A stretch of DNA of 64,000 bases from Bacteroidota bacterium (lineage in GTDB: Bacteria > Bacteroidota > Ignavibacteria > SZUA-365), in contig JAVFAS010000005.1 of NCBI GenBank assembly GCA_034002405.1, positions 2,092 to 66,091 on the forward strand. Direction: 5' to 3'. Positions 8,551 through 49,102 of this stretch are shown here, in pieces. Position 1 is the stretch's first letter, and each line of letters begins with the position of its first letter. Under the pieces are notes generated by a model that saw nothing but the letters and a program-made list of their open reading frames with translations, ran no database searches and had not been told where the DNA came from. The position numbers and the translations under genes are program-made.

Positions 8551-8653
8551 GGCGTGGATTCCTCCGCTGAATCGGAATTCTGCAACGCATTGACATCGCG
8601 GGCAGTCCGCATTACTATTGCGGGCAGTCAGGGATGCACGCATCCCGGGTCCG

Positions 8654-10907: not shown

Positions 10908-11127
10908 ACGCGGGTGACGTGTCTGGAGATCGTAACAAAACAGGGCATTCCTTTGTCTCTTGTTCTGCACTGTTTTTTTGAAGTTTTTCCTGAAGCGAAT
11001 TTCTTAATGCGTTTCATTTGAAAAAGTTGTCTTGATGTGGTGCCGCCTGTTTACACCAAGACTTTTTTTTCATATACTACGCAGACGCGATCCGGAAATA
11101 CTGAATGCACCACTTCTCCGGGCACCC

Positions 11128-15339: not shown

Positions 15340-15343
15340 CCGC

Positions 15344-29398: not shown

Positions 29399-29407
29399 CG
29401 GCTCCCG

Positions 29408-30424: not shown

Positions 30425-30430
30425 GGCGAG

Positions 30431-32653: not shown

Positions 32654-32659
32654 CGGTGG

Positions 32660-33484
32660 TCAGATTCCCCACGTATCCGGATAGAGTATGTCGGCATTCA
32701 CGGGACGCGCCCCAATCCGGGCGATGGTGGGAAGCATGCGCTTGAAGCGCTGCCGCACGATGCGCGCGCGCACGGCCGCGATGAATTCCGGCTCGAAGCC
32801 CAGCGCGGCCAAACCGGCGTCATCCACCCGGCCATCGATCATGGAGACAAGCAGTGCATCCACACGATCGTAGGTGAAACCCAGCTCGTCCTCATCGGTC
32901 TGGCCAGACCAGAGATCCGCGCTGGGAGGTTTTTGGATAATCGCATCCGGTATTCCGAGCCAGGCGGAGAGTTGGCGCACCTGGGTTTTGTACAGATCGC
33001 CGAGAGGATTGATCGCGCAGGCGGCGTCGCCAAACAGCGTACTGTACCCCAGCAATGCTTCGGTCTTGTTTCCGGTGCCGACGACGAGACCGTGATCGCG
33101 TGCCGAACGGTCGTAGAGCACGATCATGCGCGTACGCGCCATGATGTTGCCGCGGCGCAGCCGGTTCATCGTCGGATCACCGGCAATGAGCGGGTCCACC
33201 ACAGGGGTGATATCCACGAGGTCGGGTTCGACACCCATCCATCCGGCGACGAGGCGCGCATGCTCGACACTCTCGGCACTGCTGTCACGATGCGGCATCA
33301 TGATGCACGAGACCTGTCGCGGACCCAGCGCGCGAACACAGAGCGTCGCCGTCAGTGCTGAATCGATACCGCCAGACAATCCTACGATCGCCCGGGAAAA
33401 CCCCGCGGTGTCGAATTCCGCTGTAATGAATCCGCACAGCAGATCGACCGTGGCTGATGCGTCAAGTTTCAGTTGAGGTAACAT
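32660..33484 (-). CDS. nadE: NH3-dependent NAD+ synthetase
   Basis: PP-loop SGGIDS (AIVGLSGGIDSALTA) plus the GTGNKTEALLGYSTLFGD motif. Start taken at the internal Met MLPQLKLD. Confidence 0.85.
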   Translation of the reverse strand: MLPQLKLDASATVDLLCGFITAEFDTAGFSRAIVGLSGGIDSALTATLCVRALGPRQVSCIMMPHRDSSAESVEHARLVAGWMGVEPDLVDITPVVDPLIAGDPTMNRLRRGNIMARTRMIVLYDRSARDHGLVVGTGNKTEALLGYSTLFGDAACAINPLGDLYKTQVRQLSAWLGIPDAIIQKPPSADLWSGQTDEDELGFTYDRVDALLVSMIDGRVDDAGLAALGFEPEFIAAVRARIVRQRFKRMLPTIARIGARPVNADILYPDTWGI

Positions 33485-33634
33485 GCACCTGAATACGATA
33501 TTGTTGGAACTTACGAAACCCGACACCGCAAATCAATGCGTGGCGGCGTTCGTTGCGCGTTGCAGCGCGATTTTCTGAAACTGTCGCGGGGCGTTTTCGT
33601 ACACCACTCCTTATCTGGACCTTGGAGAACCGCC

Positions 33635-34510
33635 ATGTCCGCGAAACATCCCCTTGTCATCCCAATTCTCGTCATCCTTGTCGCCGGCGTGCTCAACGCG
33701 CAGGACTCCCCCGTGCGTCATGTTGCCCTGGGCGAGGCCACCGAGGTTGTCGCGAAAATCAATGGGGGCTACGGCACGGTGCATCTGCGACGCGGCGACG
33801 GGCCGATGCTCCTGAGCGTGCGCGAAAGCAACGCAAAGAACCGTGAAGCGCCACCGGAGATTCGCGTCGACTACCGCGTGGAGGACGGGATCGGTTTTCT
33901 GACCGTTGATATGGGAAACGATGGACGCGATGAGATGAACCTCCTCTCCTGCCTGTTGAATGGCCGCGGCGAACGGACGTGGGATGTGACGCTCGCGGGA
34001 GGAATTCCCATTCGACTGGACATGACCATGGGCGCGGGCACGGCGACGGTAGACCTGACCGATATTCACCTGCGTGCGTTTCATCTCGATGCGGGCGCGG
34101 GTACGGTGCTGCTCCACGCCGATCGTCCGAACGCGGAGGATATCGGACATGTGACAATCTCCGCGGGCGTGGGTGCGCTCCGTGCCGAACGCCTTGGAAA
34201 CCTGCGCTTCAACGAACTCGCATTCGAAGGGGGAATCGGCGAGTACCGGATCGACTGCAGTGGCGCACTTCCCGACAACGCGAAAGTCGTGTCCGATGTC
34301 GGCGTCGGGACTCTGACGATCGTCCTGCCACGGGACGTGGGCGCGAAGGCGATCACGAACGATAACTGGCTGAGCAGTCGGAAAATGTACGGGTTCATCC
34401 AGAAAAATGACGTCACCTACTGCACACCCGATTATCAGCGCACCCAACGGCGCGTCCTGCTCGACGTGCGGAGCGGTCTGGGTTCTGTCGTCGTGCGTCG
34501 GATGAAATAA
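33635..34510 (+). CDS. secreted repeat protein (putative adhesin / DUF4097-LiaF-C-terminal-like beta-helix)
   Basis: Signal peptide MSAKHPLVIPILVILVAGVLNAQ. It has repeated V/I-x-L-x-x-G-x-G strands (GGIPIRLDMTMGAGTATVDLTDIHL, LDAGAGTVLLHAD, VTISAGVGAL, SDVGVGTLTIVLP). Functional assignment is weak. Confidence 0.45.
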   Translation: MSAKHPLVIPILVILVAGVLNAQDSPVRHVALGEATEVVAKINGGYGTVHLRRGDGPMLLSVRESNAKNREAPPEIRVDYRVEDGIGFLTVDMGNDGRDEMNLLSCLLNGRGERTWDVTLAGGIPIRLDMTMGAGTATVDLTDIHLRAFHLDAGAGTVLLHADRPNAEDIGHVTISAGVGALRAERLGNLRFNELAFEGGIGEYRIDCSGALPDNAKVVSDVGVGTLTIVLPRDVGAKAITNDNWLSSRKMYGFIQKNDVTYCTPDYQRTQRRVLLDVRSGLGSVVVRRMK

Positions 34511-34647
34511 TGCTCTTCGGATAACCGGGTCTGGTTATCCATAACACAGACTGTCCCGGATTCCCTCCTGTCATGCGTGGTCCGCGACGCCAGTTGTGGC
34601 GAGCGCCGCGGGCATGACGCGGAGGGGCTCCGGGACAGTCCGTTTCG

Positions 34648-34733
34648 TACTCGAGGCCGGGGTCGAACCGGCACGGGTTTTAAAGCCCACTGGATTTTGA
34701 GTCCAGCGCGTCTGCCAATTCCGCCACTCGAGC
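34648..34733 (-). tRNA. tRNA-Leu (anticodon CAA), type II with long variable arm
   Basis: The minus-strand read is GCTCGAGTGGCGGAATTGGCAGACGCGCTGGACTCAAAATCCAGTGGGCTTTAAAACCCGTGCCGGTTCGACCCCGGCCTCGAGTA. It shows a Leu-type D-arm, an anticodon loop CTCAAAA, a long variable stem-loop, and a T-loop TTCGACC. Position 1:72 would be a G:U pair. CCA is not encoded. Confidence 0.75.
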
Positions 34734-34780
34734 AGCAGTCATAATTTCGTGAAACCGTCGCAGGGAAACAAGACGGCATG

Positions 34781-37700
34781 TCATTTCATCAGCAACATCC
34801 GTTGGTGACGCACGATCGTGGGAGTCTGCAGCACGGCGAGATACACGCCCGACGGCAGTCCGCTCCCGTTGAAATTCCGTACATGTGTTCCAGGTTCGAG
34901 CCAGCCATCCGCCAGCGTCACCACCTCGCGTCCGAGCGCGTCGACGATGCGCAAGGATGTCTGTCCGGCTTCGATCAGGACGAACTCGAGGGTTGTCGCG
35001 GGATTGAACGGGTTGGGCCGGTTGGGTTTCAGCTGCACGGCGACGCTGCCGTCAAATAAACGTGTGCCACCGTCCCGGCAGATTCCGAGCAAGGTGAACC
35101 GTCCGTCCTGTGTGTTGATCGTGAGATCACCGCCGATGGCAGCGACATTCTCGATGCGGAGATCGGTGTATTCCGCGTCCCCGAGCGTGACCATCATCGG
35201 GACACGCAGTGCCACGTCCTCGGCATCCGTCAGCAGCGGAATCGTCAGGTCTATGCTGCGCTCGTTGCCGGTAATACTTCCCTGCTCGCCGCCGAGCGGA
35301 ACGAGCAAACTGCTGCGATAGCGTAACGTCGCGCGAATACCGGTCGCGCCAAACAGCGCGATGTTGCGCCCGTTCCGCAATCGCAGCGGGATTTCAATCT
35401 GCTCACCTGGTTCGGCGCTGAGCGTGTCGACCACGAGTTCCACCACCGCGCTCCCGCGGATTCCATGCACACGTAGGAATTGCGGGGAACATGACGGACC
35501 GTGATCGAGCGGCATCGACACGTCGAATTCCTCATCGATCCCGGGATCATCGAATTGCACACGCAGATCGACCGACGAGCCCGGCGTCAGATTGACCGGA
35601 AGACCACCGATGACACGGAACGGTGGAATATCCGTCGCCGAGGAAATCGTGACCGCCGTGCTGCCGGAATTCGTCACCCGGACCATGCGCACGACGGGCA
35701 GATCTTCCGCGCGTTGGAGACCAAAATCCGCCGCGGCAACCGTGAGTCCGACACTGTCCCGTGTCCCGCGGAGCAGCAGATCATGTGTCATGCCACAGCG
35801 ATCAATGGCGATCCGCAGATTCCCCGCATGTGTGCCGGGGGCCGATGGTGCGAAACGAACATGCGCCTCCAGCTGCGCGCCAGCCGCGAGAAACACGGGC
35901 GGTACCGGGGAGAGAAGAAGGAAGGACGGGTCTTGCGAGGTGATTTGGGTGACCGTGTAATCCACCTCGCCGTCATTCCGAATGATGACGGTGGAATCGG
36001 CGAATTCACCGAAACAATGGAGACGGGGAAATTCTTCCAGCGTGGATACGCTGAGATCGACGCGCATGGCACGGGCGGACAGTGTCACCTGCGCCTCGAT
36101 GCCGCATCCGGCTTCATCCGCCGCAAGACGAATGGTTCCGCCCAGACTTCCTGACGTGGCATGCGTCACACGAAGCCCGACCGTGAGCGTCGCGCCCGGC
36201 GGCACCGTTCGTGGCCACAGTGATGGCGCGGGGGACTGTATCACGAACGCGGGATTATCGATGACCGGTATGGCGAAAGTCAGCGGCACCGTACCGGTGT
36301 TCTCGATGTCGAATGTGGCATCGGCGAAATCCGATTCGCAGAGAATCACATCCGGAAAGGCGATACTTGCCGTCGAGACTCGCATCTCCGCCACATCGAC
36401 GTCGATGGCATATGCGATACTGAAGGGACCCGGGGCGGGCGTGTTGCTTTCCAGCAGCAGGGTATCGACGATGCGTCCCCGCTCGCTTCCCTGCCGCGTG
36501 AAACGCACGATGAAATCATGACGCATGCCCGGATCGATCGAGATGGGAAACGCCGTGGGTTCGACAAGCACGAAACCCCGCGTCGAGGCGAAGCGGGCGT
36601 TCGTGATGTACAAGAGCCCGTCACCCACATTCGAGACGGAAAGTGTGTCCAGCGCATTGTCGTCGCAGACAAGACCTGGCAACTGCCGGGCGTTCTCCGC
36701 GAGGAGCTCCGGCGTAGTGCGCGAGATGAAAATATTCGCCGCGGCCTGGGACATCACGAACACCGGCGACGCGACATACGGGTCCGACGACGGCGTGGAC
36801 ACCTGTTGCAGGGCGACGAAATAATAGACATTGTCTTCCGCCGGGAGATCGATATCAAAGGTCCAGCTGTCGCTGTATCCACGCACCGTTCCGAGCGATG
36901 TCCATGGCATGCGGTCGGATTTGAGGTAGAGCTGAATGTCCGCGCCGTTGCCCGTGCCGCTGATGGTGAACTGTCGGCGTACGAACGTCGTCGTATCGGT
37001 GGAGGGTCCGTGGAACATGGTTTCTTCAGTCGGAATCGCATTGCTGAACCACATCATCGGACCGTCCATGCGGATGCGTCCGGCACCGCCACGCGGCCCC
37101 ACGCCAATGCCGCCTTCGGCACGGATTTTCCAGATTCCCGAGGCGAGCTTGCTCTCGAGACTCACGGCGCCACCGGAGCCGGAGCCGCCGTCGCCACTGG
37201 CGCCGTCCGATCCGCCCGCCCCGTTACTGGTGAACAATTGACCCTCAAGCCGCGGGGCGAACAATCGCAGCGCGCCGCCGCCGCCGCCACCGTCACCCGA
37301 ACAGGAGAATGCGAGCTGTGGATTGCCACTCGCCCCACCCGATCCGCCCGCGAGCGGAATGACACTCTCATTTCCATGTGGTTGTCCGCCATTCCCATTC
37401 TGGGACGACGTGCCCGCCGTGGCGTATCCACCGGCACCGCCGGCCTGCTGCTGCTGCTGACCGCTGCCGCCACCATGACCACCCGGGGGATTGCACCCGC
37501 CGCCGTCGCCACAGCCGTTGCCGGAACTTCCGAACGGATGCCCGGTACCGCCGGCCGACGCTTCGTATGCCGGGGCATCTCCGCCCGGAACACCGTTGAG
37601 ACTGCCGCCGGTATTTCCGATGAAGGTACCGGATCCCGCACCGGGATTCCGGTATTCATCACTGCCGAAGGGGTTTCCCGCACGATTGCGTCCACCCCGA

Positions 37701-38470
37701 CCGCCTCCGGTAAAACCATCTCCTCCATCCGCGCCGCTTCCGCTCCAGTCGCAGAAATTCCCGCCACCGCCGCCGCCGCCCGGACCGCCGTGTTTTGCAT
37801 TCGCATCAACCGAAACCTGCGTGTTGTTCCCGGTCCGTACCGGACCTTTCGAAAGGATGACCACCGGGAGAAAACCTTGATTTCCCGGTGTGGCCGGGTC
37901 GCAATCCGCCGTCGAAATGTCGTAGCTGTCGCCGAGCAGCGCGAGACTGTCGATGATGATTGCCCCGCGCGGAGACCGCAGCGCCCACACTCCCCCGCTC
38001 CCGATCGTGCCGCCGGCATTCGTGACTATCGCCGGTTGGGGACGCACGATGTAGAACGTGACCGAGTTTTGTGTCACGCCGTTGTATCGCACCTGCAGCG
38101 GAATGATGAATTCGGGCGCGATGCCCTGCCAGCTGTCGCTGTTGGGCTGCTGATCAGGATGCACGAAGATCTGCGTCGAAATCATACGACCATTCCAGGA
38201 CACCACGAGCGGACCGATGCCGATTTTTGTGGTGTCCGCCGCGTTGACGCATTCAACACGGACCGCATCACCGGGATTGTTCATATAGAAACCATCCGGA
38301 CCGTAATTTCCGATTTGGTCGTGCGGCCCCAGGATTTCAACATACGTGTTCATCCCCGGAGTCCCGAGGTCCGGGATCATGTAGGAAATGGCCTGGGCAC
38401 GAACATCCATCGAAGGAATGAGCAATGCCGCCAGCAGTATCCACTCCGCGATTCGTCGGGCTTGTTTCAT
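34781..38470 (-). CDS. large secreted T9SS cargo protein with Gly-rich region and multiple Ig-like (ASH/CARDB-like) domains
   Basis: Signal peptide MKQARRIAEWILLAALLIPSMDVRAQA. There is a ~230-aa Gly/Ser/Asp/Asn-rich tract (GGPGGGGGGGNF...GGSGGASGNPQ). Several N/T-x-G-based Ig-like repeats follow (IENTGTVPLTF, IIRNDGEVDYTV, VRVTNSGSTAVTI). The C-terminal sorting domain is RPNPFNPATTLEFVL...LPSGVYLAVLQTPTIVRHQRMLLMK. Confidence 0.75.
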   Translation of the reverse strand: MKQARRIAEWILLAALLIPSMDVRAQAISYMIPDLGTPGMNTYVEILGPHDQIGNYGPDGFYMNNPGDAVRVECVNAADTTKIGIGPLVVSWNGRMISTQIFVHPDQQPNSDSWQGIAPEFIIPLQVRYNGVTQNSVTFYIVRPQPAIVTNAGGTIGSGGVWALRSPRGAIIIDSLALLGDSYDISTADCDPATPGNQGFLPVVILSKGPVRTGNNTQVSVDANAKHGGPGGGGGGGNFCDWSGSGADGGDGFTGGGRGGRNRAGNPFGSDEYRNPGAGSGTFIGNTGGSLNGVPGGDAPAYEASAGGTGHPFGSSGNGCGDGGGCNPPGGHGGGSGQQQQQAGGAGGYATAGTSSQNGNGGQPHGNESVIPLAGGSGGASGNPQLAFSCSGDGGGGGGALRLFAPRLEGQLFTSNGAGGSDGASGDGGSGSGGAVSLESKLASGIWKIRAEGGIGVGPRGGAGRIRMDGPMMWFSNAIPTEETMFHGPSTDTTTFVRRQFTISGTGNGADIQLYLKSDRMPWTSLGTVRGYSDSWTFDIDLPAEDNVYYFVALQQVSTPSSDPYVASPVFVMSQAAANIFISRTTPELLAENARQLPGLVCDDNALDTLSVSNVGDGLLYITNARFASTRGFVLVEPTAFPISIDPGMRHDFIVRFTRQGSERGRIVDTLLLESNTPAPGPFSIAYAIDVDVAEMRVSTASIAFPDVILCESDFADATFDIENTGTVPLTFAIPVIDNPAFVIQSPAPSLWPRTVPPGATLTVGLRVTHATSGSLGGTIRLAADEAGCGIEAQVTLSARAMRVDLSVSTLEEFPRLHCFGEFADSTVIIRNDGEVDYTVTQITSQDPSFLLLSPVPPVFLAAGAQLEAHVRFAPSAPGTHAGNLRIAIDRCGMTHDLLLRGTRDSVGLTVAAADFGLQRAEDLPVVRMVRVTNSGSTAVTISSATDIPPFRVIGGLPVNLTPGSSVDLRVQFDDPGIDEEFDVSMPLDHGPSCSPQFLRVHGIRGSAVVELVVDTLSAEPGEQIEIPLRLRNGRNIALFGATGIRATLRYRSSLLVPLGGEQGSITGNERSIDLTIPLLTDAEDVALRVPMMVTLGDAEYTDLRIENVAAIGGDLTINTQDGRFTLLGICRDGGTRLFDGSVAVQLKPNRPNPFNPATTLEFVLIEAGQTSLRIVDALGREVVTLADGWLEPGTHVRNFNGSGLPSGVYLAVLQTPTIVRHQRMLLMK

Positions 38471-38589
38471 CCGGCACCCCTCATCGGTCAGTCTGGAAAA
38501 ATGAAGAATCAGCTAAGTGTAGAAAATCCGATGCACAGATTCAATATGAAAATGCGGGGCTGCCCGAAGATGAGCGCCATCCGGAAATG

Positions 38590-38618
38590 GAAAGACCGCC
38601 GGTCAGGGCGGTCTTTCA
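38590..38618 (-). terminator. rho-independent terminator downstream of mutB
   Basis: AGACCGCC-GGTCAG-GGCGGTCT hairpin flanked by T-rich sequence, about 20 nt after the mutB stop. Confidence 0.6.
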
Positions 38619-38637
38619 TTCGTCATGTCCATATGGA

Positions 38638-40818
38638 TCAGATGTCCGAATCCTCGTCGAGGAGAATGCGCATCACCTGTTGGGCGGCCCGGGAGATGAT
38701 CGTTCCGGGTCCGAATACGGCGACGGCGCCATGCTGATAGAGGAAATCATAATCCTGAACGGGAATGACACCCCCGACCACCACGAGAATATCGTCGCGG
38801 CCGATCTTCCGCAGTTCCTTGACCAGTGACGGAACCAACGTCTTGTGCCCTGCCGCGAGACTGCTGACACCGATCACATGCACGTCGTTTTCCGCAGCCT
38901 GCCGTGCGGCTTCCTGCGGGGTCTGGAACAACGGCCCGATATCGACATCGAAGCCAAGATCGGCAAAAGCGGTGGAGATGACCTTGGCACCGCGATCGTG
39001 GCCATCCTGTCCGAGCTTGGCGATCATGATGCGAGGACGGCGTCCTTCCTGCTGTGCGAAGCGGTCGGTCATATTCTTCGCCGCGATGAAATCACTGTCC
39101 TCGCCTGCTTCGCTGCTGTAGACGCCGGAGATGGAACGGATCACCGCCTGATGCCGGCCGAACACTTCTTCCATCGCCGCGGACATCTCGCCCAGCGTGG
39201 CGCGTTTCCGCGCGGCATCGACACAGGCTTCGAGCAGGTTTGCATCACCGCGTGCCGCGACGGTGATGGCCCCGAGCGCATCGCGCACCGCGGATTCATC
39301 GCGTTCCGCACGCAGATCCGCCAGTCGTTTCATCTGCGCCGCGAGCACCGCGCTGTTATCAACCTCGAGAATGTCGATCGGATCCTCTTTTTCCAGCCGA
39401 AGCTTGTTGACACCCACGATGGTGTCCTTCCCCGAATCGATCCGCGCCTGCTTGCGCGCCGCGGCTTCCTCGATGCGCATTTTCGGCAGTCCCGTCTCGA
39501 TCGCCTTGGTCATGCCGCCGAGCTCTTCCACTTCCTGAATCAGTTCCCACCCGCGATGGGCCAGTTGATGGGTAAGCGTTTCGACGTAGAACGAACCACC
39601 CCAGGGATCGATCGCACGACAGATGTTGCTTTCGTCCTGAATCAGCAGCTGCGTGTTGCGTGCGATGCGCGCGGAAAAATCCGTCGGCAGCGCGATGGCT
39701 TCGTCCAGGGCATTCGTGTGCAAGGATTGCGTGTGGCCCTGCGCCGACGCCATCGCCTCGATGCAGGTCCGTGCGACATTGTTGAACGGATCCTGTTCGG
39801 TCAGACTCCACCCCGATGTCTGGCTGTGGGTGCGCAGGGACATCGACTTCGGATTTTTTGGATCAAACTGCCGGATCATCTTCGCCCAGAGCATGCGCGC
39901 GGCGCGCATTTTGGCGATCTCCATGAAGAAATTCATTCCGATCGCCCAGAAGAACGAGAGGCGCGGCGCGAAGGCATCGATATCGAGTCCGGCCGCGATC
40001 CCGGCACGGACGTATTCGAGTCCGTCGGCAAGCGTGTAGGCCATTTCGATGTCGGCCGTGGCGCCCGCTTCCTGCATGTGATATCCGGAAATCGAGATCG
40101 AATTGAATTTCGGCATGTTTCGCGCCGTGAATGCGATGATGTCGGAAACGATCCGCATCGACGGTGCCGGTGGATAGATGTAGGTATTGCGGACCATGAA
40201 CTCCTTGAGAATGTCGTTCTGGATGGTCCCGCTGAGTTGTTCCATCGCCACCCCCTGCTCCTCGGCCGCGACGATATAGAGCGCCATGATCGGAAGCACG
40301 GCGCCATTCATGGTCATCGATACCGACATCTTGTCGAGCGGGATGCGGTCAAAAAGGATTCGCATGTCCAGAATAGAATCAATCGCCACGCCGGCTTTCC
40401 CCACATCGCCGACTACTCTGGGATTGTCCGAATCATAGCCACGATGGGTGGCGAGATCGAACGCGATGCTCAAACCCTTTTGTCCCGCCGCGAGATTGCG
40501 GCGATAAAAGGCGTTCGACTCCTCGGCGGTGGAAAATCCCGCGTACTGTCGCACGGTCCAGGGTCGCGTGACATACATGCTGCTGTATGGTCCGCGCAGG
40601 AACGGTGGCATGCCGGCGACGAAATCAAGATGTTCGAGACCGGCAAGATCCTCCCGCGTGTAGAGAGGACGAACGGGAATCTGTTCGGGAGTCTGCCAGA
40701 TCAGCGCGTCGGGGTCTTTTCCCCGCGACTCCGCGAGCGCGATCTTCTTCCACTCTTCCATCGTCGATGCCGGCCATCCAGGCGTATTCCAGGTCCCCTG
40801 CGTAAAATCCGGTTTCAT
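38638..40818 (-). CDS. mutB: methylmalonyl-CoA mutase large (catalytic) subunit
   Basis: The ~727-aa product carries the N-terminal MCM TIM-barrel signatures ([47 protein letters not shown]) and a C-terminal B12-binding domain ([23 protein letters not shown]). Start taken at MKPDFTQ, which gives a 4-nt overlap with mutA. Confidence 0.9.
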
Positions 40819-42950
40819 GCTTTCACCTCGCTGGTTTCCGTGATGATGCCGAGACGTCGCAGCACATCCGCGAGTGTCGCGCCCACATCTGATTTCACAT
40901 GGATGAACAAATCGACTCCCGCCTGCGTGAGGATGTCGACGCTTTCCTTCGGATACCCGGCGACGACCACGATCGCGTGACAACCTGCCGCGCGCAGTGC
41001 TTCGAGCATGCCCGGGACCATCACCGGATAGCTCTCATCATCGCTACAGGCAACGATCACGTCGGCATTTGCCGCGATCGCCGCTGCCGCCGCTGCATCG
41101 GGTGTGTCGAATCCGTCATTGTCGATGATCTCCATTCCCGCGGTCCCGAAGAAACCGGAGGAGAACGTCGCGCGCGCGCGACGCCAGAATCCCGGTCCGA
41201 ATGTCGCGAGAAACACACGCGGTCGATGCGCGGCGGCACTCACCGCATCGCGAAGTCGCTCGAAATCCTCCGCCGCGCGAAAGGGTGTGAGGGGTCGCAC
41301 GATCGGAACATCGGCGCCACCGTTGTGGAGCACGTCGTTGACTTCGGCAAGGGTGAGTCCCTCCTGAAGCACGGCTGCCATCGCGGCGACGAGATTGCCG
41401 GTGCCGCTCTCGAACACCGAGCGGAGCGACTGGGAAAGCACGGCGGCGTCACAGGTCCGTGTCGCGAGATGCGTCCGACGCGACTCCTCCACCCGCTCCC
41501 TGACCGCCGCTGCATCGGGAATTCCGTTATTCAGCGGTTTTTCTCCGAGATTCGGATACTGGTTGCTTCCCACGATGACATCGCGGCGACGGGAAATGTT
41601 CGCCCGTTTCTCGGCGGCCGTACGCGCGATGCTGTCCTGAATGAATCCGCTCGATGCCGCGGCGACATATCCACCCCGCGCTTCGATTTCCTGGAACGTT
41701 TCCCAGGCGTGTGCGACGAGGGCGTGTGTCAGCGATTCGACATAGTAGGATCCGGCCGCGGGGTCCGTGACGTGTCCGAGCCGGGATTCCTCGCGGAGAA
41801 TGACCTGCAGATTGCGTGCGATGCGTTTTGAAAAATCGCCTGGCGTGGATGCGATCTCGTCGAAGGGCGCGGTGTACATCGAATCGGTTCCGCCGATCAC
41901 CGCGGCCATGGCTTCGATGGTCGATCGCAGCATGTTGACGTAGGGATCGTACTTCGTCTGATGCCAGAGGGAAGTGCGCGTATACATGCGCATTTTCCGT
42001 GCATCTCCGTCCTTCACGCCGAACGCCGTGGTCACGCGCGACCAAAGCATGCGTGCCGCACGCAGTTTCGCGATTTCCATGAAAAAGCTCATGCCGACCG
42101 GAATATCGAAGCGCATGCGACGCGCGACCGCGTCGGCGGATAATCCCATATCCGTCAACCGGTTCAGATATTCCACGCCGGAGGCCAGCATGCAGGCAAG
42201 TTCCAGTGTCGCGCTGGCACCTGCGTCATGATAACAATCGCCGCACACCGAAATCACGGTGGTCGGCATTGCCCGCTGATCGACGTAACTCACTGCGTCA
42301 TGCATGAGCCGGAAGGTCGTCGAAAGCGAGTACGGCAGGGTGCCCGTGCTGATCAGATGGGCCAGGGGATTGAACGCAACATGTGACAGACTGCGCTCCG
42401 CCACCACGGCCATGGCGAGGAAAACCGGCGACGACAAGCCTGCCTGGATGTCCATGGCAATGCCGGGTTGAATGCGTTCGGATATTCGTTGAAAATCCGG
42501 ATAGTGCTGCACGGCGGTCCCACCCACGCCGACCGTTTTCGCGGAAGCATCACCGCTACCGCGGGCGAGCATCGCCGCATGATCCATGCGAAGCACCGCA
42601 CCATCCTGACCCTGCCGGCGCGCGGACACGATTTCCTCGGCCGCGGCCTCCGGCAGGATCGCACTTGTCGTCTGGGCGATGACCCAGGGATGTGCTGCAT
42701 TGCCGAGTGCACGTGTTCCGCGCACGTACGGCTCGAATCCCGGGAGCGTGTCGATCTGCGGCAGCCCCTCGATATCGTCGCGGAAGTTCATTGGCTCGAC
42801 GGGGAAACCTTCATAAGGGTTCCATATCAGCTTTTCAAAATCGGCGCCTTTCAGATCGGCGGAAACCCGTTCTTTCCATTGTGCTTTTGTCGGTGGAGAA
42901 AACTCTGAAAAGAGCAGGTCTTCTCCTCCTGGCGTTCCAGTGTCATTCAT
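40815..42950 (-). CDS. mutA: methylmalonyl-CoA mutase small subunit
   Basis: 711 aa with the MCM-like fold throughout but lacking the canonical B12 DxHxxG region. It sits immediately upstream of the large subunit and overlaps it, as in characterised mutAB operons. Confidence 0.82.
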
Positions 42951-43891: not shown

Positions 43892-46294
43892 TTACTCTGC
43901 CAGTGCCTGGATTTTTTCAAGAAGACGGAGACGGAGCTGTTCGCGACGCGTGGAATCCGTGAATGCGCCGCCACTCTCGTCAACGACATAAAAGGAATCA
44001 ACGACGCCGTCGACGCGCGTCGCAATTTTGGCAAATGCGACATTCAATCCAAACAAGGACAGTTCCGCGGAAAGCACATACAACAAACCGAACGTATCGG
44101 GTGCGTACACGTCGACGATGGTCTGTTCCGCACCGGAAGCGGTATGATGCGGATGATATACGACATCGGTTGGAATGTGCGTTGTCGGGAGCTTTCTCAG
44201 CTTCCGAATCCATTTCCGTCGATAGCGGTCGAAGATGGCACCGGCCTCGAGTTCGCCCGCGCAGACCGCACGTATCATGTTTCGAAGCAAGGAACACTGT
44301 TCCTCCCGGAGATGGCCGTCGGTGATGATATCCACGACGCGAAAGGTGTCGATCACGACATCGTGCCGTGTCTCGATGGAAGCATCGACGATGCTACAAT
44401 CGGCCCCGAACAGTGCGGCGGCGAATTGCGAAAGAAGTAGCGGGCGGTCAAGACAGAAAATGGTGACTTCACTGAATGCCCGATGATGCCGCATGTCCAT
44501 GCGAACCAATTCTCCATCGATCACATCCTGGACAGCCGCGCTGAAATCGCGTCCGTCCGTCGTGAACAACGTGTCGCTGCTGTCCGCCCTTTCCCGGATG
44601 GATACGGAAGCACCATCCGTCGTGGACTCGGTCGAGAGCATGCGCGTGGCAACCTCGTGGAGTTCCCTGAGAAGTTCCCGCTTCCAATCGGTCAAGACAC
44701 CGGGATTCAACGCGGCCATGTCGGCGAGTGTGAGCAGATAGAGCAGATCGAGCCGCTGTACCGACTGCACGACCGCGAGAAACGGCTGCAGGGATGTAAT
44801 CTCCCGGAAATTGCGTCGGAAGGCGAGTTGCTCCATTCTCAAGTGCTCGCGGACAAGAAAGGAAACCGTGTCGATGATGTCGTGCCGTCCATAACGCCGA
44901 AGGATCGTCGGAACAAGATCAGCGCCAATCTGTTCGTGATGCGCAAGATCGATGGGCTTGGCGATGTCGTGCAGAAGTATTGCGTAATACAACACGGATT
45001 TATCTGGTATTTGATCCAGTAGTCGCGCGATTGCCGCATCGTCCCGCAGCCGGGTTTCCGTGGCATGGATGGCGCGGAGTGTATGTTCGTCGGCGGTAAA
45101 GAAATGGTAGACGTTATGCTGGAAAAAATGCTCGAGTGCCGCGAACTCCGGAAGAACGGCCGAGAGTACTCCATGTTCGTGCATGAACATCAAGGTCGCT
45201 GCGATGGAGGTGCCGGTGCGCAGGAGGTCGTCGAAACGACGCATGGTTTCCGCGCGGAAGGTTTTCCCTCGAAACGCATCCATGGCACGGATCAGGGCAG
45301 CGGATGGCTGTCGTTGCCCTGTCGCCATGGCAAGAAACACCTCCATGACATCCTGTTCATCGAGCGGCAATGCATGATCCGTTTCAGGTTCATGCGGGCG
45401 ATTCCCGTGAGAAGAGGATGACTGTCGCGCATCGTGAAATGCGAGTTGAACGGAGACGTGAACGGCCCTGGCGTGGGCGTAGTACGCACGCATGAAGCGC
45501 TCGACGGTTTTTTTCTCATCATGCGAACGCATGCCCAGCGATGTCGCCACGCTGCGTTGCAACTCGAAGTCCAACGAGTCGTGGAGATGTCCGCTGTGGC
45601 GATGCATCTCGGCACGCACGGACAGGAAAAACCCATAGGCATCGATCAATGCGTGTCTCCGTGCCTGGCTTAGATCCATCGTGGAAAGAATTTCCCGAAT
45701 GTCAGGCAGGGGTTCGGTTCCCAACGGCCTGGAGGCGATCACGTCGAGCAAACCGATATAGTAGATTCCATGGATATCGCGCAGCGTTCCCGCACTGTTC
45801 TTGATATTCGGTTCAAGCAGGGATACCGCCGATCCATACTGCCGATGTCTCTCCCGCGTGAGCAATTCCAATCCTGCGAGAATGTGTTCTCTCCGTTTCT
45901 TCACCGTCACCTTCATTCCCTCTCGGAATGCGCGATACGTGACGGTATGACCCGCGATGTACCGTGCATCCATCTGGGCGACCCATGAACGGATGTCCGT
46001 ATCGATCATCGCGGATACATCGTCGAGCGAGCGTACCCCCACGCTCACATGCTCGATGCCACTGCTCAGCGCGGCGGTGATCCGCGCATCGAATGATTCC
46101 TGGTCGTCTGATACGTTCTTCCCGGTATGATTTTCATGATCGTCATCCGGACTTCCCTGAAGAACAAGCAAATCCAGATCAGAAAAATCTGTCTGTCCGG
46201 CACGCGCCACACTTCCGGTCACGCAGAGACAGTATCCGCGTGCCGTCCAACGATCCTCCCACATTTCTTTCGCTTGTCGAACGCGATCACTCAT
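43892..46294 (-). CDS. glnD: bifunctional [protein-PII] uridylyltransferase / uridylyl-removing enzyme
   Basis: N-terminal nucleotidyltransferase (GSVARAGQTDFSDLDLLVL), a central HD domain (YYAILLHDIAKP), and C-terminal ACT-like domains. About 800 aa. Confidence 0.85.
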   Translation of the reverse strand: MSDRVRQAKEMWEDRWTARGYCLCVTGSVARAGQTDFSDLDLLVLQGSPDDDHENHTGKNVSDDQESFDARITAALSSGIEHVSVGVRSLDDVSAMIDTDIRSWVAQMDARYIAGHTVTYRAFREGMKVTVKKRREHILAGLELLTRERHRQYGSAVSLLEPNIKNSAGTLRDIHGIYYIGLLDVIASRPLGTEPLPDIREILSTMDLSQARRHALIDAYGFFLSVRAEMHRHSGHLHDSLDFELQRSVATSLGMRSHDEKKTVERFMRAYYAHARAVHVSVQLAFHDARQSSSSHGNRPHEPETDHALPLDEQDVMEVFLAMATGQRQPSAALIRAMDAFRGKTFRAETMRRFDDLLRTGTSIAATLMFMHEHGVLSAVLPEFAALEHFFQHNVYHFFTADEHTLRAIHATETRLRDDAAIARLLDQIPDKSVLYYAILLHDIAKPIDLAHHEQIGADLVPTILRRYGRHDIIDTVSFLVREHLRMEQLAFRRNFREITSLQPFLAVVQSVQRLDLLYLLTLADMAALNPGVLTDWKRELLRELHEVATRMLSTESTTDGASVSIRERADSSDTLFTTDGRDFSAAVQDVIDGELVRMDMRHHRAFSEVTIFCLDRPLLLSQFAAALFGADCSIVDASIETRHDVVIDTFRVVDIITDGHLREEQCSLLRNMIRAVCAGELEAGAIFDRYRRKWIRKLRKLPTTHIPTDVVYHPHHTASGAEQTIVDVYAPDTFGLLYVLSAELSLFGLNVAFAKIATRVDGVVDSFYVVDESGGAFTDSTRREQLRLRLLEKIQALAE

Positions 46295-46379
46295 GATGGT
46301 GTCCTCCCCGCTCCGAATGCACCGTATTGTATTATGAACATCTTTTTCTAAAAATAAGAACAATGATTGTTATTGGAAC

Positions 46380-46598
46380 GGTGGATAAGTGGATAACGGA
46401 AGGAACTCGCGGCGCAGGTGTTGATTTTCAAACAGATAGTATCGAGCTCATTCATCCATCACTTCAAGTTGACGGTGCGTGGAAAATTGGTGGACGAGAG
46501 GATGTGTTCGAAGTGTGCACGGTCACCTTCAACGAAAAAGGGCGGTCATGCACATTGTGCCGACCGCCCTGACCGTTTGTACACGGGTCTTATCCACA
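46380..46598. promoter_or_regulatory. DnaA-box cluster plus AT-rich tract (candidate oriC, dnaA-downstream part)
   Basis: TGGATAA repeats at 46381-46397 (GTGGATAAGTGGATAAC) and a perfect TTATCCACA at 46590-46598. A 50-nt AT-rich stretch at 46324-46376 could be the DNA-unwinding element. Confidence 0.55.
46534..46568 (-). terminator. rho-independent terminator downstream of dnaA
   Basis: GGGCGGTC...GACCGCCC gives an 8-bp GC stem. On the coding (minus) strand it is followed by TTTTT. Lies 55 nt after the dnaA stop. Confidence 0.7.
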
Positions 46599-46621
46599 CT
46601 CGTGGATGGGAGCCATTCCCG

Positions 46622-48055
46622 CTACCGGGAAATGTAGGAAAGCTGTTTCCGCAACTGTTCGATGCGATCGCGCAGCGACCGGTCGCTTTCCATGGCCGAC
46701 TCGATGGTTTTGCATGCATGGATGATGGTACTGTGATCTCGTCCACCAAAATGAAGTCCGATGGTTTTCAAGGATGCGCGCGTGAGATCCTTGGCGAGGT
46801 ACATGGCGATCTGCCGGGGAAAGACCACTTCCTGCTTTCGTGATTTCGCCCGGAGTGCGTTCTCCGGAAGCTTGAAATAATCCGCGACGATCTTCTGAAT
46901 TTGTTCGACCGTGATGTCTTTTTTCTCGGAAGAAATGACATGCCGGAGCACCCGCTCCGCCAGCGTGACATCGAGAGGTTGCTGCTCGAGAGTATGGCGC
47001 GCGATGAGCCCGATGTAACAGCCTTCGAGTTCGCGGATATTTGATTTGACATTCGAGGCGATGAATTCAATCACGTCCTGCGGCAGGTCGATATGGTCAC
47101 TTTCCGCTTTCTTTCGGAGGATGGCGATGCGTGTCTCGAGATCCGGGGGTTGCACGTCGACGGTGAGTCCGCATTGGAAGCGTGAAATCAGTCGCTCGTC
47201 AAGTCCGACCAGATCCTTCGGTGCCCGATCGGACGAAAGAATGATCTGTTTCTTGAGCTGATGCAGGGTGTTGAAGGTGTGGAAGAATGTGTCCTGGGTT
47301 CGTTCCTTGCCGGAGAAAAACTGGATGTCGTCGACGATCAACACATCCATGTTTCGATAGAAATTCGAGAATTCGATGGTGTTGTTCCGCTCGATTGCCT
47401 CGACGAAGTCGATGGTGAATTTCTCGCTGCTCACGTAATACACACGCTTGCCGGGATTGTTCATCGACACATGGTTGCCGATGGCTTGAATCAGATGGGT
47501 TTTCCCCAGACCAACACCACCGTAGAGCACCAGGGGATTGAAAGCCGTCTCTCCCGCATTGTTCGCCACATTCAACGCGGCGGCGCGGGCGAACTGATTG
47601 CCGTCACCGCGGATGAAGCTGTCGAAGGTGAATTTGGGATTGATATTGGTCACGAAGGGTTCACGCACGTACACCGGTGTCGTGGTACCCGCGCCTTGCG
47701 ACGTGGCGGCTGCAGGGGTAGAACCAGACGGATAGGGGTTTCTCTCCACCGCGAACGGAAGCTGTTCCTGCTTCGGCAGCTTGACGGCGTATTGCAGCGC
47801 CGCATTCTCTCCGAGGATTTCCCTGAGGGCCTGCTGGATCATCGAGAAATAGTGTTCCTCGATCCACTCATAGAAGTACGAACTCGGCACCTCCACGGTC
47901 AGAAGCGCATCGTCGAGCGAGGCGGGGAGGATGGGTTCGAACCATGTGCTGAACGTCAGCGGTTTGATCTGAGGACGAATCAGTTCGAGGCATTCCTTCC
48001 AGACGGACGACGCGCTCTTCCCGGTTTCAACATTCATTGCGTTTGAGTTATTCAC
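46622..48055 (-). CDS. dnaA: chromosomal replication initiator protein DnaA
   Basis: AAA+ Walker A LYGGVGLGKTHLIQAIGN, the box VII/sensor motifs, and the C-terminal DNA-binding domain (VVFPRQIAMYLAKDLTRASLKTIGLHFGGRDHSTIIHA). The start appears to be GTG, overlapping a TTATTCACA box. Confidence 0.93.
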   Translation of the reverse strand: MNNSNAMNVETGKSASSVWKECLELIRPQIKPLTFSTWFEPILPASLDDALLTVEVPSSYFYEWIEEHYFSMIQQALREILGENAALQYAVKLPKQEQLPFAVERNPYPSGSTPAAATSQGAGTTTPVYVREPFVTNINPKFTFDSFIRGDGNQFARAAALNVANNAGETAFNPLVLYGGVGLGKTHLIQAIGNHVSMNNPGKRVYYVSSEKFTIDFVEAIERNNTIEFSNFYRNMDVLIVDDIQFFSGKERTQDTFFHTFNTLHQLKKQIILSSDRAPKDLVGLDERLISRFQCGLTVDVQPPDLETRIAILRKKAESDHIDLPQDVIEFIASNVKSNIRELEGCYIGLIARHTLEQQPLDVTLAERVLRHVISSEKKDITVEQIQKIVADYFKLPENALRAKSRKQEVVFPRQIAMYLAKDLTRASLKTIGLHFGGRDHSTIIHACKTIESAMESDRSLRDRIEQLRKQLSYISR

Positions 48056-48284
48056 AAGATTTCGGAATTCATGGTGTGTGGCCTCGCGGGGCGGATCACC
48101 CGCGTTCAGCGCGAGCGTCGCCCGAGGATTCGGACGAGATCGTCGATAAATCCTTTAAATGGAATAGGTTGGAAGAATTGCGCCGCTCCGTTTCGTTCGA
48201 GAGCTGTGCGGAACGCCCTTGACTTCGTGTGACTCACCATCAGGCAAGGCTGGTTGACGCAGGTTATCCACAACTTATTCACAA
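48048..48284. promoter_or_regulatory. DnaA-box cluster upstream of dnaA (dnaA promoter / candidate oriC, upstream part)
   Basis: TTATTCACA at 48048-48056 (overlapping the dnaA start), TTATCCACA at 48264-48272, and TTATTCACA at 48276-48284. Weaker matches near 48297 and 48537. Confidence 0.55.
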
Positions 48285-48559
48285 CAACGCGCGCCGTGTG
48301 GACGAAGTGAAGTATAGAGAGCGAAAACGTGATTTTCAACCGCGAAAAAGTGCGGTGATCACTTGACTTTTTCAAAGTGTACGTCCCGCAATGACTTATG
48401 ACGAAAAAATTTTTCCAATCTTTTTTCTCAAACGTTTTCCCCGCCACACGCATGGCCGCGGCAGGCCGAAGCGGAGATGTGGACTTCGGCATGACTTGCT
48501 TTTCTAACGTCCCGGCCGTAGTATTCAAGGCAATATTGTCCACGGAATTTTGCGACACC

Positions 48560-49102
48560 ATGAGACACGGATTCATTTTTTTTCTTCTCGTCACTCTGCT
48601 TCCGGGCTTGGTTCTTGCCCAGTTCCGGGGCGAGGAACCCGGTCCCCCATCGGTGCGTGATGGCGTGTATCGCAACACGGAATCCAATGCGATATTGGGA
48701 TTCTTTCATCCGGAGAATCTGGAGATGCGTCACAGCGTCTCGGTCAGCTACGGAAGCGTCGGTGATCAGGGTGTCGGTATCTCGATGTACACGAACAGCC
48801 TCCGCTACCGGATTTCGGAGCCGCTGAGTGTGCGGGCCGATGTCGCGATGATGTTTTCCCCCTTCGGGAGCATGTCCTCGCGTTTTCAGCAGGATCTGTC
48901 GGGCATCTTTCTTCGCCGCGCGAGCATTGACTACCGGCCCGGCAAGAACATGCACATCAGTCTGCAGTACCGGAATGATCCATACGCCGTCTACGGTCCG
49001 TATTCCGGCAGCCGCGGTAGCATTGGAGGGTACGGAGTCGGCGGATTCGGGTTTGGTGGCGGGATGTTTTTCGATGACTGGGACGACGAGGATCGTCCCT
49101 GA
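48560..49102 (+). CDS. hypothetical secreted protein with Gly/aromatic-rich acidic C-terminus
   Basis: Start taken at MRHGFIFFLLVTLLPGLVLAQ (signal peptide). The C-terminus reads GGYGVGGFGFGGGMFFDDWDDEDRP. No known domain recognised. Confidence 0.4.
   Translation: MRHGFIFFLLVTLLPGLVLAQFRGEEPGPPSVRDGVYRNTESNAILGFFHPENLEMRHSVSVSYGSVGDQGVGISMYTNSLRYRISEPLSVRADVAMMFSPFGSMSSRFQQDLSGIFLRRASIDYRPGKNMHISLQYRNDPYAVYGPYSGSRGSIGGYGVGGFGFGGGMFFDDWDDEDRP

What the first reader, a model, noticed from the sequence alone, without database searches (positions are those of the whole stretch)
46295..48560. Candidate bipartite oriC flanking dnaA
Both sides of dnaA carry consensus DnaA boxes. Downstream there are two tandem TGGATAA boxes and a perfect TTATCCACA next to a 50-nt AT-rich tract. 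Upstream there are three TTAT(C/T)CACA boxes, one overlapping the GTG start of dnaA. Gene order is atypical: dnaN is not adjacent, and rpmH-rnpA lies 18 kb away. The flanking genes are glnD and a secreted protein. Split origins around dnaA are known from Bacillus and Helicobacter.
Basis: partly seen in the sequence, partly recalled or inferred. Interest (0 to 1): 0.5.

Follow-up and report, generated by a model that had tools for sequence, protein, structure and literature searches.

The report
Chromosome replication origin around dnaA
This is almost certainly the ordinary chromosomal replication origin of an uncultured Ignavibacteria-like bacterium: its DNA-opening module lies just downstream of dnaA and has been kept there although the usual neighbouring genes have moved away.

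Summary
Both spacers flanking dnaA (46622-48037, minus strand) carry three DnaA boxes with at most one mismatch, against 0.07-0.1 expected (0/20000 shuffles). They are the two strongest box clusters in the 64 kb. They also hold its most AT-rich (46325-46374, 82% AT) and third most AT-rich 50-mers. Cumulative GC skew is V-shaped with its minimum at 41.7 kb, 4.6 kb from the downstream spacer.

Twelve related genomes (DnaA identity 51-85%, GC 30-58%) share a tandem, 8-bp-phased box pair 210-290 nt after the dnaA stop, followed by 72-94% AT. In relatives with the canonical rpmH-rnpA-yidC<>dnaA-dnaN-recF-gyrB order, this module lies in the dnaA-dnaN spacer. That is where oriC was predicted for Melioribacter roseus. 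The dnaA-glnD spacer is therefore the likely unwinding part of oriC.

The upstream boxes lie downstream of a conserved sigma-70-like dnaA promoter, inside a leader of about 267 nt. This is the classical autoregulation layout. Whether they are also needed for origin firing (a truly bipartite origin) cannot be decided from sequence.

Two corrections: the start codon is ATG 48037, not GTG 48055, and the perfect box at 46590 is 200 nt from the AT tract.

Verdict: a real but ordinary feature, a new member of a known kind.

The parts
46622..48037 (-). dnaA coding sequence (471 aa, ATG start at 48037, TAG stop at 46622-46624)
   Evidence: Pfam DnaA_N, Bac_DnaA and Bac_DnaA_C. PDB 8btg at E 6.6e-121. 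The identical 471-aa product is called on 8 public contigs. GTG 48055 is out of frame in L001, L002 and L004.
46380..46396 (-). Tandem, 8-bp-phased DnaA-box pair TTATCCACT|TATCCACC. Proposed nucleation site next to the unwinding element.
   Evidence: The pair is found in all 12 genomes compared, 210-290 nt after the dnaA stop. It is invariant in alignment A2.
46325..46378 (.). AT-rich tract, the candidate DNA unwinding element. It also overlaps the likely glnD promoter (-10 TACAAT at 46331-46326, minus strand).
   Evidence: Most AT-rich 50-mer of the window at 82%. Second least stable 41-mer. The 50 nt after the box pair are 72-94% AT in every relative.
46351..46368 (+). Possible DnaA-trio run: AAA AAT AAG AAC AAT GAT on the + strand, equal to NTN x6 on the dnaA-sense strand, 12 nt from the box pair
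   Evidence: a run of 6 with shuffle P 0.017. The closest relatives do not meet the 16-nt spacer limit, so this is inconclusive. Criterion taken from PMC8287927.
46534..46573 (-). Intrinsic terminator of dnaA: hairpin GGGCGGTCGGCAC...GTGCATGACCGCCC followed by UUUUU
   Evidence: RNA fold -28.3 kcal/mol, z -4.26, 0/200 shuffles as stable. Conserved in L001 and L002 (A2).
46590..46609 (.). Perfect box TTATCCACA (46590-46598, +) facing a degenerate inverted box (CCATCCACG, 46601-46609, -), just after the dnaA stop
   Evidence: The inverted pair is clearer in L001 (TCATCCACA / TTTTCCACA) and is aligned in A2.
48048..48056 (+). DnaA box TTATTCACA, 11 nt 5' of the dnaA ATG, in the leader
   Evidence: TGTGAATAACT is invariant in the window and 4 relatives (A1, A3).
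48264..48283 (+). Tandem DnaA boxes TTATCCACA-ac-TTATTCACA (11-bp phase) at about +21 to +40 of the dnaA transcript
   Evidence: family D6. Invariant in A1. The same promoter-then-box-pair layout appears in L006 and L084.
48311..48339 (-). Sigma-70-like dnaA promoter: TTGAAA, 17-nt spacer, TATACT
   Evidence: The only promoter-like hit in 46200-48700, matching 10 of 12 positions. Both hexamers are conserved in A1.
48361..48378 (-). Invariant 18-mer ACTTTGAAAAAGTCAAGT upstream of the dnaA -35. Function unknown; possibly a regulator site or UP-like element.
   Evidence: Unique in the window even allowing 3 mismatches. Identical in L001, L002 and L004. One or two changes in L081.
48389..48438 (.). 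Second AT-rich tract (74% AT) between the divergent promoters
   Evidence: Third most AT-rich 50-mer of the window.
48496..48524 (+). Likely promoter of the divergent secreted-protein gene: TTGCTT, 17-nt spacer, TAGTAT
   Evidence: Read from the sequence. TTGATT and TAGAAT are conserved at the same columns in A1. It falls below the scanning tool's threshold in the window.

Best explanation
The region is the chromosomal replication origin (oriC) of an uncultured bacterium close to Ignavibacteria in the FCB group.

The part that opens lies in the 327-bp dnaA-glnD spacer. DnaA binds the tandem box pair at 46380-46396. From there it oligomerises over the adjacent 82%-AT tract (46325-46378) and melts it so that the helicase can be loaded. 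Forks then leave in both directions. A perfect box just after the dnaA stop and a few degenerate boxes add further DnaA. A strong terminator (46534-46573) shields the module from dnaA transcription.

The three upstream boxes lie inside the transcribed leader of a conserved sigma-70-like dnaA promoter. There, bound DnaA would repress its own gene. They may in addition contact the downstream complex by looping out dnaA, as in Bacillus subtilis and Helicobacter pylori, but this is not shown.

Shown here: the boxes, the AT tract, the promoter and terminator motifs, their conservation, and the skew switch nearby. Inferred: DnaA binding, the site of melting, autorepression and looping.
For: - Box enrichment: 3 boxes per spacer against 0.07-0.1 expected, 0/20000 shuffles. 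These are the top two cluster scores in the window, and both perfect boxes of the 64 kb lie here.
- The most AT-rich 50-mer of the window directly abuts the tandem pair.
- GC skew in 1-kb bins is -0.043 (1-26 kb), -0.005 (26-42 kb) and +0.041 (42-64 kb). The cumulative minimum is at 41704, and the V depth was reached in 0/10000 permutations. Skew is positive at 52-64 kb although the genes there are on the minus strand, so this is not a gene-strand effect.
- The layout is identical in L001, L002, L004 and L081 (76-85% DnaA identity) while the surrounding non-coding DNA has diverged.
- The tandem pair plus AT tract sits at a fixed distance after the dnaA stop in all 12 genomes. This includes L006 and L009, whose downstream neighbour is dnaN, and L003, where one small ORF lies between dnaA and dnaN (Pfam).
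- The oriC of M. roseus was predicted in its dnaA-dnaN spacer at the skew switch (PMC3534657).
- The promoter lies directly 5' of the upstream boxes and is conserved.
- There is a strong terminator after dnaA.
Against: - The skew minimum is 4.6 kb to the left of the proposed DUE. A 16-kb zone of zero skew (26-42 kb) makes the switch broad.
- Only 64 kb of the replicon is visible, so a deeper minimum elsewhere cannot be excluded.
- The AT tract also has to hold the glnD promoter, which by itself accounts for some AT-richness.
- The DnaA-trio criterion is met only weakly. The three closest relatives with the same layout fail the 16-nt spacer limit.
- No binding, unwinding or replication data exist for this lineage.
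Confidence: 0.75

Rival explanations
1. Functionally bipartite origin. Both box clusters are indispensable, and DnaA bound upstream and downstream bridges them and loops out dnaA before the downstream DUE melts.
For: - Two clusters of similar strength are split by dnaA.
- Both clusters stayed with dnaA when the ancestral neighbours on both sides (the rpmH operon and dnaN) were lost.
- L006 and L084 carry extra boxes further upstream of the promoter, more than autoregulation would need.
- Precedents exist in B. subtilis, H. pylori and C. difficile (PMC3479198, PMC7561715).
Against: - The upstream boxes sit in the transcribed leader of dnaA, right after its promoter. This is what plain autoregulation predicts, and a promoter must travel with its gene anyway.
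- C. jejuni has DnaA-bound boxes upstream of dnaA and is nevertheless monopartite (PMC6052347).
- No AT tract abuts the upstream boxes. The nearest is about 105 nt away, beyond the promoter.
Confidence: 0.35
2. The origin lies elsewhere, either in the 26-42 kb zero-skew zone or outside the window. The boxes around dnaA would then only regulate dnaA or titrate DnaA.
For: - The cumulative skew minimum is at 41.7 kb, with a first local minimum at 25.7 kb.
- The least stable 41-mer of the window is at 25150-25190 in a 580-bp non-coding stretch.
- rpmH, a usual origin neighbour, is at 28.1 kb with one near-consensus box upstream.
Against: - No box with up to 2 mismatches occurs in 24850-25600, and only two in the rpmH upstream spacer.
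- No other place in the window scores above 3.5, against 9-9.5 at dnaA.
- The downstream module corresponds in position and sequence to the spacer after dnaA in relatives with dnaN downstream.
Confidence: 0.08
3. Unwinding takes place upstream of dnaA, at the AT tract 48389-48438. The downstream cluster would be the auxiliary half.
For: - The upstream spacer is divergent, so genes point away from it on both sides, as expected at an origin.
- It holds the third most AT-rich 50-mer of the window and a perfect box.
Against: - The AT tract is separated from the boxes by the promoter and a GC-rich stretch, and no NTN run follows the boxes (read).
- AT content is lower (74% against 82%).
- Across the 12 genomes, the downstream pair plus AT tract is the universally conserved unit.
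- In all characterised split origins cited, the DUE is downstream of dnaA (PMC3479198, PMC7561715).
Confidence: 0.07
4. The downstream boxes are a transcription-factor site through which DnaA controls glnD, not origin elements.
For: The pair lies about 50 nt upstream of a likely glnD -10 (TACAAT, 46331-46326).
Against: The same pair plus AT tract, at the same distance from the dnaA stop, precedes dnaN or an unrelated small ORF in other genomes. It therefore follows dnaA, not glnD.
Confidence: 0.05

Closest known systems
Bacillus subtilis oriC (incA/B upstream of dnaA, incC with DUE between dnaA and dnaN) and its basal unwinding system (BUS)
   Same: - Box clusters lie on both sides of dnaA.
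- The upstream cluster overlaps the dnaA promoter region.
- A tandem same-orientation box pair is followed by an AT-rich tract downstream of dnaA.
- The box orientation relative to the AT tract is the one required for trio loading: 5'-TTATCCAC-3' followed by NTN on the same strand.
- DnaA is 44% identical over its full length to Bacillus/Paenibacillus DnaA and matches 8btg.
   Different: - The downstream neighbour is glnD, not dnaN, and the rpmH operon is about 18-20 kb away.
- The boxes in the pair overlap by 1 nt (8-bp phase) instead of being 0-3 bp apart.
- The trio run is weak and is not conserved within the 16-nt spacer limit in the nearest relatives.
- There are no experimental data.
Helicobacter pylori bipartite oriC (oriC1 / dnaA / oriC2)
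   Same: - It is a split arrangement with the DUE downstream of dnaA.
- The gene order around dnaA is non-canonical. H. pylori dnaA lies between punB and comH (PMC6052347).
   Different: - H. pylori uses a divergent box core (TTCAC), whereas here the E. coli-type consensus occurs perfectly.
- For H. pylori, the requirement for both halves and topology-dependent binding were shown experimentally (PMC3479198). Nothing of this kind is known here.
Predicted oriC of Melioribacter roseus (Ignavibacteria-related), in the 303-bp dnaA-dnaN spacer
   Same: - It belongs to the same wider lineage.
- The origin is placed directly downstream of dnaA at the GC-skew switch (PMC3534657).
- Relatives in this study with dnaN downstream (L006, L009, and L003 with one small ORF between) carry the same tandem pair plus AT tract.
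   Different: - In the window's clade dnaN and rpmH are no longer adjacent.
- The M. roseus sequence itself was not available here for direct alignment.
dnaA autoregulatory operators (DnaA boxes in or after the dnaA promoter, as in E. coli and B. subtilis; established knowledge)
   Same: Boxes lie immediately downstream of a sigma-70-like promoter and next to the start codon.
   Different: Here the boxes sit in a long leader of about 267 nt and are accompanied by an invariant 18-mer of unknown role. Repression was not tested.

Membership tests
DnaA-dependent bacterial chromosomal origin (oriC) | Cluster of DnaA boxes: at least 3 boxes with mean spacing under 100 bp (Mackiewicz criterion as quoted in PMC7561715) | tested here: met
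   Downstream: 6 boxes with at most 2 mismatches in 327 bp. Upstream: 6 in 522 bp. For boxes with at most 1 mismatch, 3 per spacer against about 0.1 expected, 0/20000 shuffles.
DnaA-dependent bacterial chromosomal origin (oriC) | AT-rich, helically unstable unwinding element adjacent to the boxes | tested here: met
   46325-46374 is the most AT-rich 50-mer of the window (82%) and starts 6 nt from the tandem pair. Nearest-neighbour stability is -42.8 against a window mean of -60.8 (sd 4.1). Stress-induced duplex destabilisation (SIDD) was not computed.
DnaA-dependent bacterial chromosomal origin (oriC) | Location at the GC-skew switch of the replicon | tested here: inconclusive
   There is a significant local V with its minimum at 41.7 kb, 4.6 kb away. 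Only 64 kb of the replicon is available, and the switch zone is 16 kb broad.
DnaA-dependent bacterial chromosomal origin (oriC) | DnaA-dependent unwinding and autonomous replication | not testable with these tools
   This needs P1 or KMnO4 footprinting, minichromosome assays or marker-frequency data.
Basal unwinding system (BUS: DnaA box pair, spacer, DnaA-trios) | Tandem box pair in the same orientation, the better box having at most 2 mismatches | tested here: met
   TTATCCACT and TTATCCACC have 1 mismatch each and the same orientation. The pair is conserved in 12 genomes. The boxes overlap by 1 nt, which is slightly outside the described 0-3 bp gap.
Basal unwinding system (BUS: DnaA box pair, spacer, DnaA-trios) | At least 3 consecutive NAN trios on the correct strand within 16 bp of the box (PMC8287927) | tested here: inconclusive
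   Window: 6 trios after a 12-nt spacer, shuffle P 0.017. L006, L084 and L005: 7 trios. L001, L002 and L081 reach only 2 within the limit; in L001 and L002 a run of 4 starts at 18 nt. The motif is so degenerate in AT-rich DNA that this has little weight.
Bipartite oriC (B. subtilis, H. pylori, C. difficile type) | Two DnaA-box clusters separated by the dnaA gene, with the DUE in one of them | tested here: met
   The DUE candidate is downstream, as in the known cases.
Bipartite oriC (B. subtilis, H. pylori, C. difficile type) | Both sub-regions required for initiation, with DnaA bridging them (looping) | not testable with these tools
   These requirements were defined experimentally in PMC3479198 and PMC7561715. 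C. jejuni shows that the anatomy alone is not sufficient (PMC6052347).
dnaA autoregulatory operator | DnaA boxes overlapping or just downstream of the dnaA promoter | tested here: met
   The promoter TTGAAA-17-TATACT lies at 48339-48311 and the boxes at 48283-48264 follow it. Another box lies 11 nt before the ATG. All are conserved in A1. The promoter is predicted only, and the transcription start site is not mapped.

The most novel reading that the evidence does not exclude
The origin of this lineage is functionally split, which I believe would be the first such case in the FCB group (this was not checked in the literature here). It behaves as a self-contained cassette (promoter and boxes, dnaA, boxes and DUE) that kept both halves when an inversion or relocation separated it from both ancestral neighbours, the rpmH operon and dnaN. 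The 16-kb zero-skew zone to its left would be the scar of that move. The invariant 18-mer at 48361-48378 would be the site of a lineage-specific origin or dnaA regulator.
Probability: 0.25. Interest if true: 0.4.

Novelty: new member of a known kind. Interest (0 to 1): 0.25.

Why it matters
It fixes the likely replication start of an uncultured lineage for which no origin has been described. That helps to orient and close metagenome-assembled genomes and to read growth rates from coverage.

The comparison also gives a compact signature for origins across Ignavibacteria-like genomes: an 8-bp-phased box pair plus an AT tract, 210-290 nt after the dnaA stop. It shows that this module follows dnaA rather than dnaN.

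It does not change what is known about how bacterial origins work.

Tried and rejected
- **Chance clustering:** rejected by shuffles.
- **GTG 48055 as the start, overlapped by a box:** rejected. The GTG is out of frame in three relatives, and public gene calls give the ATG product.
- **Alternative origin sites at 25.0-25.6 kb and upstream of rpmH:** AT-rich but essentially box-free.
- **Known RNA families:** Rfam finds only one tRNA in the whole window.
- **A conserved RNA structure in the dnaA leader:** RNAalifold gives no covariation support (term +0.24). The long-range helix it proposes merely pairs the repeated boxes.
- **The invariant 18-mer as a sigma-70 promoter:** no -10 at the proper distance on either strand (read). 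It occurs nowhere else in the window. Its role stays unexplained.
- **DnaA-trio test:** formally positive in the window but not robust in the nearest relatives.
- **Metagenome scan:** added only one close relative (L081) and three distant ones (L082-L084).
- **Whole-replicon skew on relatives' long contigs** (L006 lies on a 3.5-Mb contig): could not be computed, because only about 13 kb per locus can be fetched.
Full report
**What is in the sequence**

The ORF 46622-48037 on the minus strand is a full-length DnaA. It matches Pfam DnaA_N, Bac_DnaA and Bac_DnaA_C and B. subtilis DnaA (8btg) at E 6.6e-121. It is followed on the same strand by glnD (43892-46294), murI and two methylmalonyl-CoA mutase genes. 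It is preceded, divergently, by a gene for a signal-peptide protein (from 48560), then LytR_C, rsfS and argS. The rest of the window holds chromosomal housekeeping genes such as radA, smc, obg, nadE, a surA-like gene and fbp. The rpmH-rnpA-yidD-yidC operon lies at 25.6-28.2 kb. No dnaN was found.

**Check of the observation**

A search for TTATCCACA with up to one mismatch finds 12 sites in 64 kb (6.4 expected). Six of them, including both perfect matches, lie between 46380 and 48283.

- Each spacer has three such boxes. Dinucleotide shuffles of the same spacer give 0.105 and 0.070, and none of 20000 shuffles reaches three.
- A weighted cluster score puts the two spacers at 9.5 and 9.0. The next best place in the window scores 3.5.
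- The most AT-rich 50-mer of the whole window is 46325-46374 (82% AT), six bases from the tandem pair. The third most AT-rich is 48389-48438 in the upstream spacer.

Two details need correction.

- The perfect box at 46590 is not next to the AT tract. It sits immediately after the dnaA stop, facing a degenerate inverted box, and is followed by a strong intrinsic terminator (-28.3 kcal/mol, z -4.3). The tandem pair 46380-46396 is what abuts the AT tract.
- The GTG at 48055 is in frame with the conserved ATG only in the window and L081. It is out of frame in L001, L002 and L004 (coordinates). Independent public gene calls give the 471-aa ATG product. That box therefore lies in the leader, 11 nt before the start codon.

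**GC skew**

Within the window the cumulative G-C curve is V-shaped with its minimum at 41704. In 1-kb bins the skew is -0.043 for 1-26 kb, -0.005 for 26-42 kb and +0.041 for 42-64 kb. A V of this depth was reached in 0 of 10000 bin permutations.

The positive arm persists at 52-64 kb, where nearly all genes are on the minus strand. The signal is therefore not a by-product of gene orientation. The switch is broad and its minimum is 4.6 kb from the proposed unwinding site. This is compatible with an origin at dnaA but does not pinpoint it. With 64 kb only, I cannot show that it is the global minimum.

**Comparative evidence**

The closest DnaA proteins in one-genome-per-species and metagenome collections belong to MAGs labelled 'Bacteroidetes bacterium' or 'Ignavibacteria bacterium'. 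These are L001 (85%), L002 (84%), L081 (79%) and L004 (76%). More distant ones are L009 (61%), L082 (55%), L084 (53%), L003 and L006 (52%), and L005 and L083 (51%).

L001, L002 and L004 share the whole gene order argS-LytR_C-sec<>dnaA-glnD (with murI and MCM also present in L001 and L002), with proteins 41-85% identical. They also have the same box layout: a tandem pair about 240-250 nt upstream, one box about 20 nt upstream, boxes right after the stop, and a tandem overlapping pair 216-222 nt after the stop. L081 shows the same box layout.

In alignments of the spacers these elements stand out as invariant islands in otherwise diverged DNA (A1 and A2).

Most telling, all 12 genomes have a tandem pair with 8-bp phase (TTATNNACA|TATNNACA or near variants, in the dnaA-sense orientation) 210-290 nt after the dnaA stop. 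It is followed by 50 nt of 72-94% AT. This holds although genome GC ranges from 30 to 58%.

- L006 has the canonical order yidC-rnpA<>dnaA-dnaN-recF-gyrB.
- L009 has dnaA-dnaN-recF.
- L003 has rnpA<>dnaA-orf-dnaN (Pfam).

The module in the window's dnaA-glnD spacer thus corresponds in position and sequence to the one that follows dnaA in relatives that keep dnaN downstream. For Melioribacter roseus, a cultured member of the wider lineage, the origin was predicted in that spacer at the skew switch (PMC3534657). The module has followed dnaA, not dnaN, when the neighbourhood was rearranged.

**Upstream spacer**

The only sigma-70-like promoter hit in 46200-48700 is TTGAAA-17-TATACT at 48339-48311 on the dnaA strand. 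Both hexamers are conserved. The tandem boxes 48283-48264 follow it at roughly +21 to +40. The third box lies 11 nt before the ATG, at the end of a leader of about 267 nt.

L006 and L084 show the same order, promoter then box pair, plus extra boxes further upstream. This is the classical arrangement for DnaA autorepression. It is also what the incA/B region of B. subtilis looks like.

A divergent promoter for the secreted-protein gene (TTGCTT-17-TAGTAT, 48496-48524) and an invariant 18-mer (48361-48378) complete the spacer. The 18-mer has no explanation so far.

**Mechanism proposed**

DnaA occupies the high-affinity boxes. The tandem pair at 46380-46396 directs a DnaA oligomer onto the adjacent AT tract, which melts and receives the helicase. 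The orientation is the one required by the basal unwinding system: 5'-TTATCCAC-3' followed on the same strand by NTN triplets. I derived this orientation from the E. coli R1/DUE arrangement (own knowledge), from the 5'-tailed scaffolds used in PMC8287927, and from the C. difficile trio sequence in PMC7561715.

The window has six such triplets after a 12-nt spacer (shuffle P 0.017). The nearest relatives, however, do not keep a run within the 16-nt limit. I rate the trio evidence as inconclusive.

DnaA bound upstream would repress dnaA. Whether it also bridges to the downstream complex is open. All steps after 'the motifs are there and conserved' are inference.

**Comparison with known systems**

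Anatomically this is the B. subtilis / H. pylori / C. difficile type: two clusters split by dnaA, with the DUE downstream (PMC3479198, PMC7561715). Like H. pylori, it has lost the canonical neighbours (PMC6052347).

Membership in 'bipartite origins' rests on a functional requirement for both halves and on looping, which cannot be tested here. C. jejuni is a warning: it has DnaA-bound boxes upstream of dnaA and is nevertheless monopartite (PMC6052347). I therefore file the region as an oriC of the common dnaA-linked kind. The unwinding module downstream is well supported. The bipartite reading is possible at about one in three.

**Verdict**

This is a real feature, correctly spotted, and ordinary in kind. 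The mildly interesting points are:

- the rearranged neighbourhood, with dnaN gone and the rpmH operon 18-20 kb away;
- the fixed-distance 8-bp-phased box pair as a lineage-wide origin signature;
- the 16-kb zero-skew zone to the left of the origin;
- the invariant 18-mer.

Noticed in passing
window 25004-25583: A 580-bp non-coding stretch between a GH2-like gene and yidC. It holds the second most AT-rich 50-mer (25146-25195) and the least stable 41-mer of the window. It lies at the first local minimum of cumulative skew (25.7 kb) but has no DnaA box with up to 2 mismatches. Two copies of the palindrome GTTTCACGTG(A/G)AAC flank the yidC terminator hairpin (about 25516-25563).
   Followed up: partly
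window 28233-28375: The spacer upstream of rpmH carries one near-consensus DnaA box (TTATCAACA, 28277) inside the fourth most AT-rich 50-mer. It may be a relic of the ancestral rpmH<>dnaA spacer seen in L003 and L006.
   Followed up: partly
window 26000-42000: A 16-kb zone of essentially zero GC skew (-0.005) lies between a clearly negative left arm and a positive right arm. It coincides with the block that separates rpmH from dnaA and may reflect an old rearrangement around the origin.
   Followed up: partly
window 48361-48378 (-): The invariant 18-mer ACTTTGAAAAAGTCAAGT lies about 22-39 nt upstream of the dnaA -35. It is identical in L001, L002 and L004 and unique in the window. It forms part of an imperfect 30-nt palindrome (48344-48373). 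Its function is unknown.
   Followed up: partly
L001, L002, L003, L004, L005, L006, L009, L081-L084 (coordinates): Across 12 Ignavibacteria-like genomes with 30-58% GC, an 8-bp-phased tandem DnaA-box pair sits 210-290 nt after the dnaA stop. In low-GC members the box reads TTATTAACA. In the seven more distant relatives (not the window's own clade) it is followed by a conserved CTTATTAT motif.
   Followed up: yes
window 11032-15339 and 14912-17968 (+): Two very long ORFs with CARDB/VWA-type domains overlap by 428 nt in different frames. This may be one gene with a frameshift or assembly error, or two overlapping calls.
   Followed up: no
window 48398-48560: Public gene calls start the secreted-protein gene at 48452 (216 aa). 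The conserved ATG, the signal peptide and a conserved promoter 36 nt upstream point to 48560 (180 aa).
   Followed up: partly
window 38638-42950 and 7384-8643: Two adjacent methylmalonyl-CoA mutase genes have ORFs overlapping by about 170 nt. The MeaB GTPase gene is 30 kb away rather than next to them.
   Followed up: no
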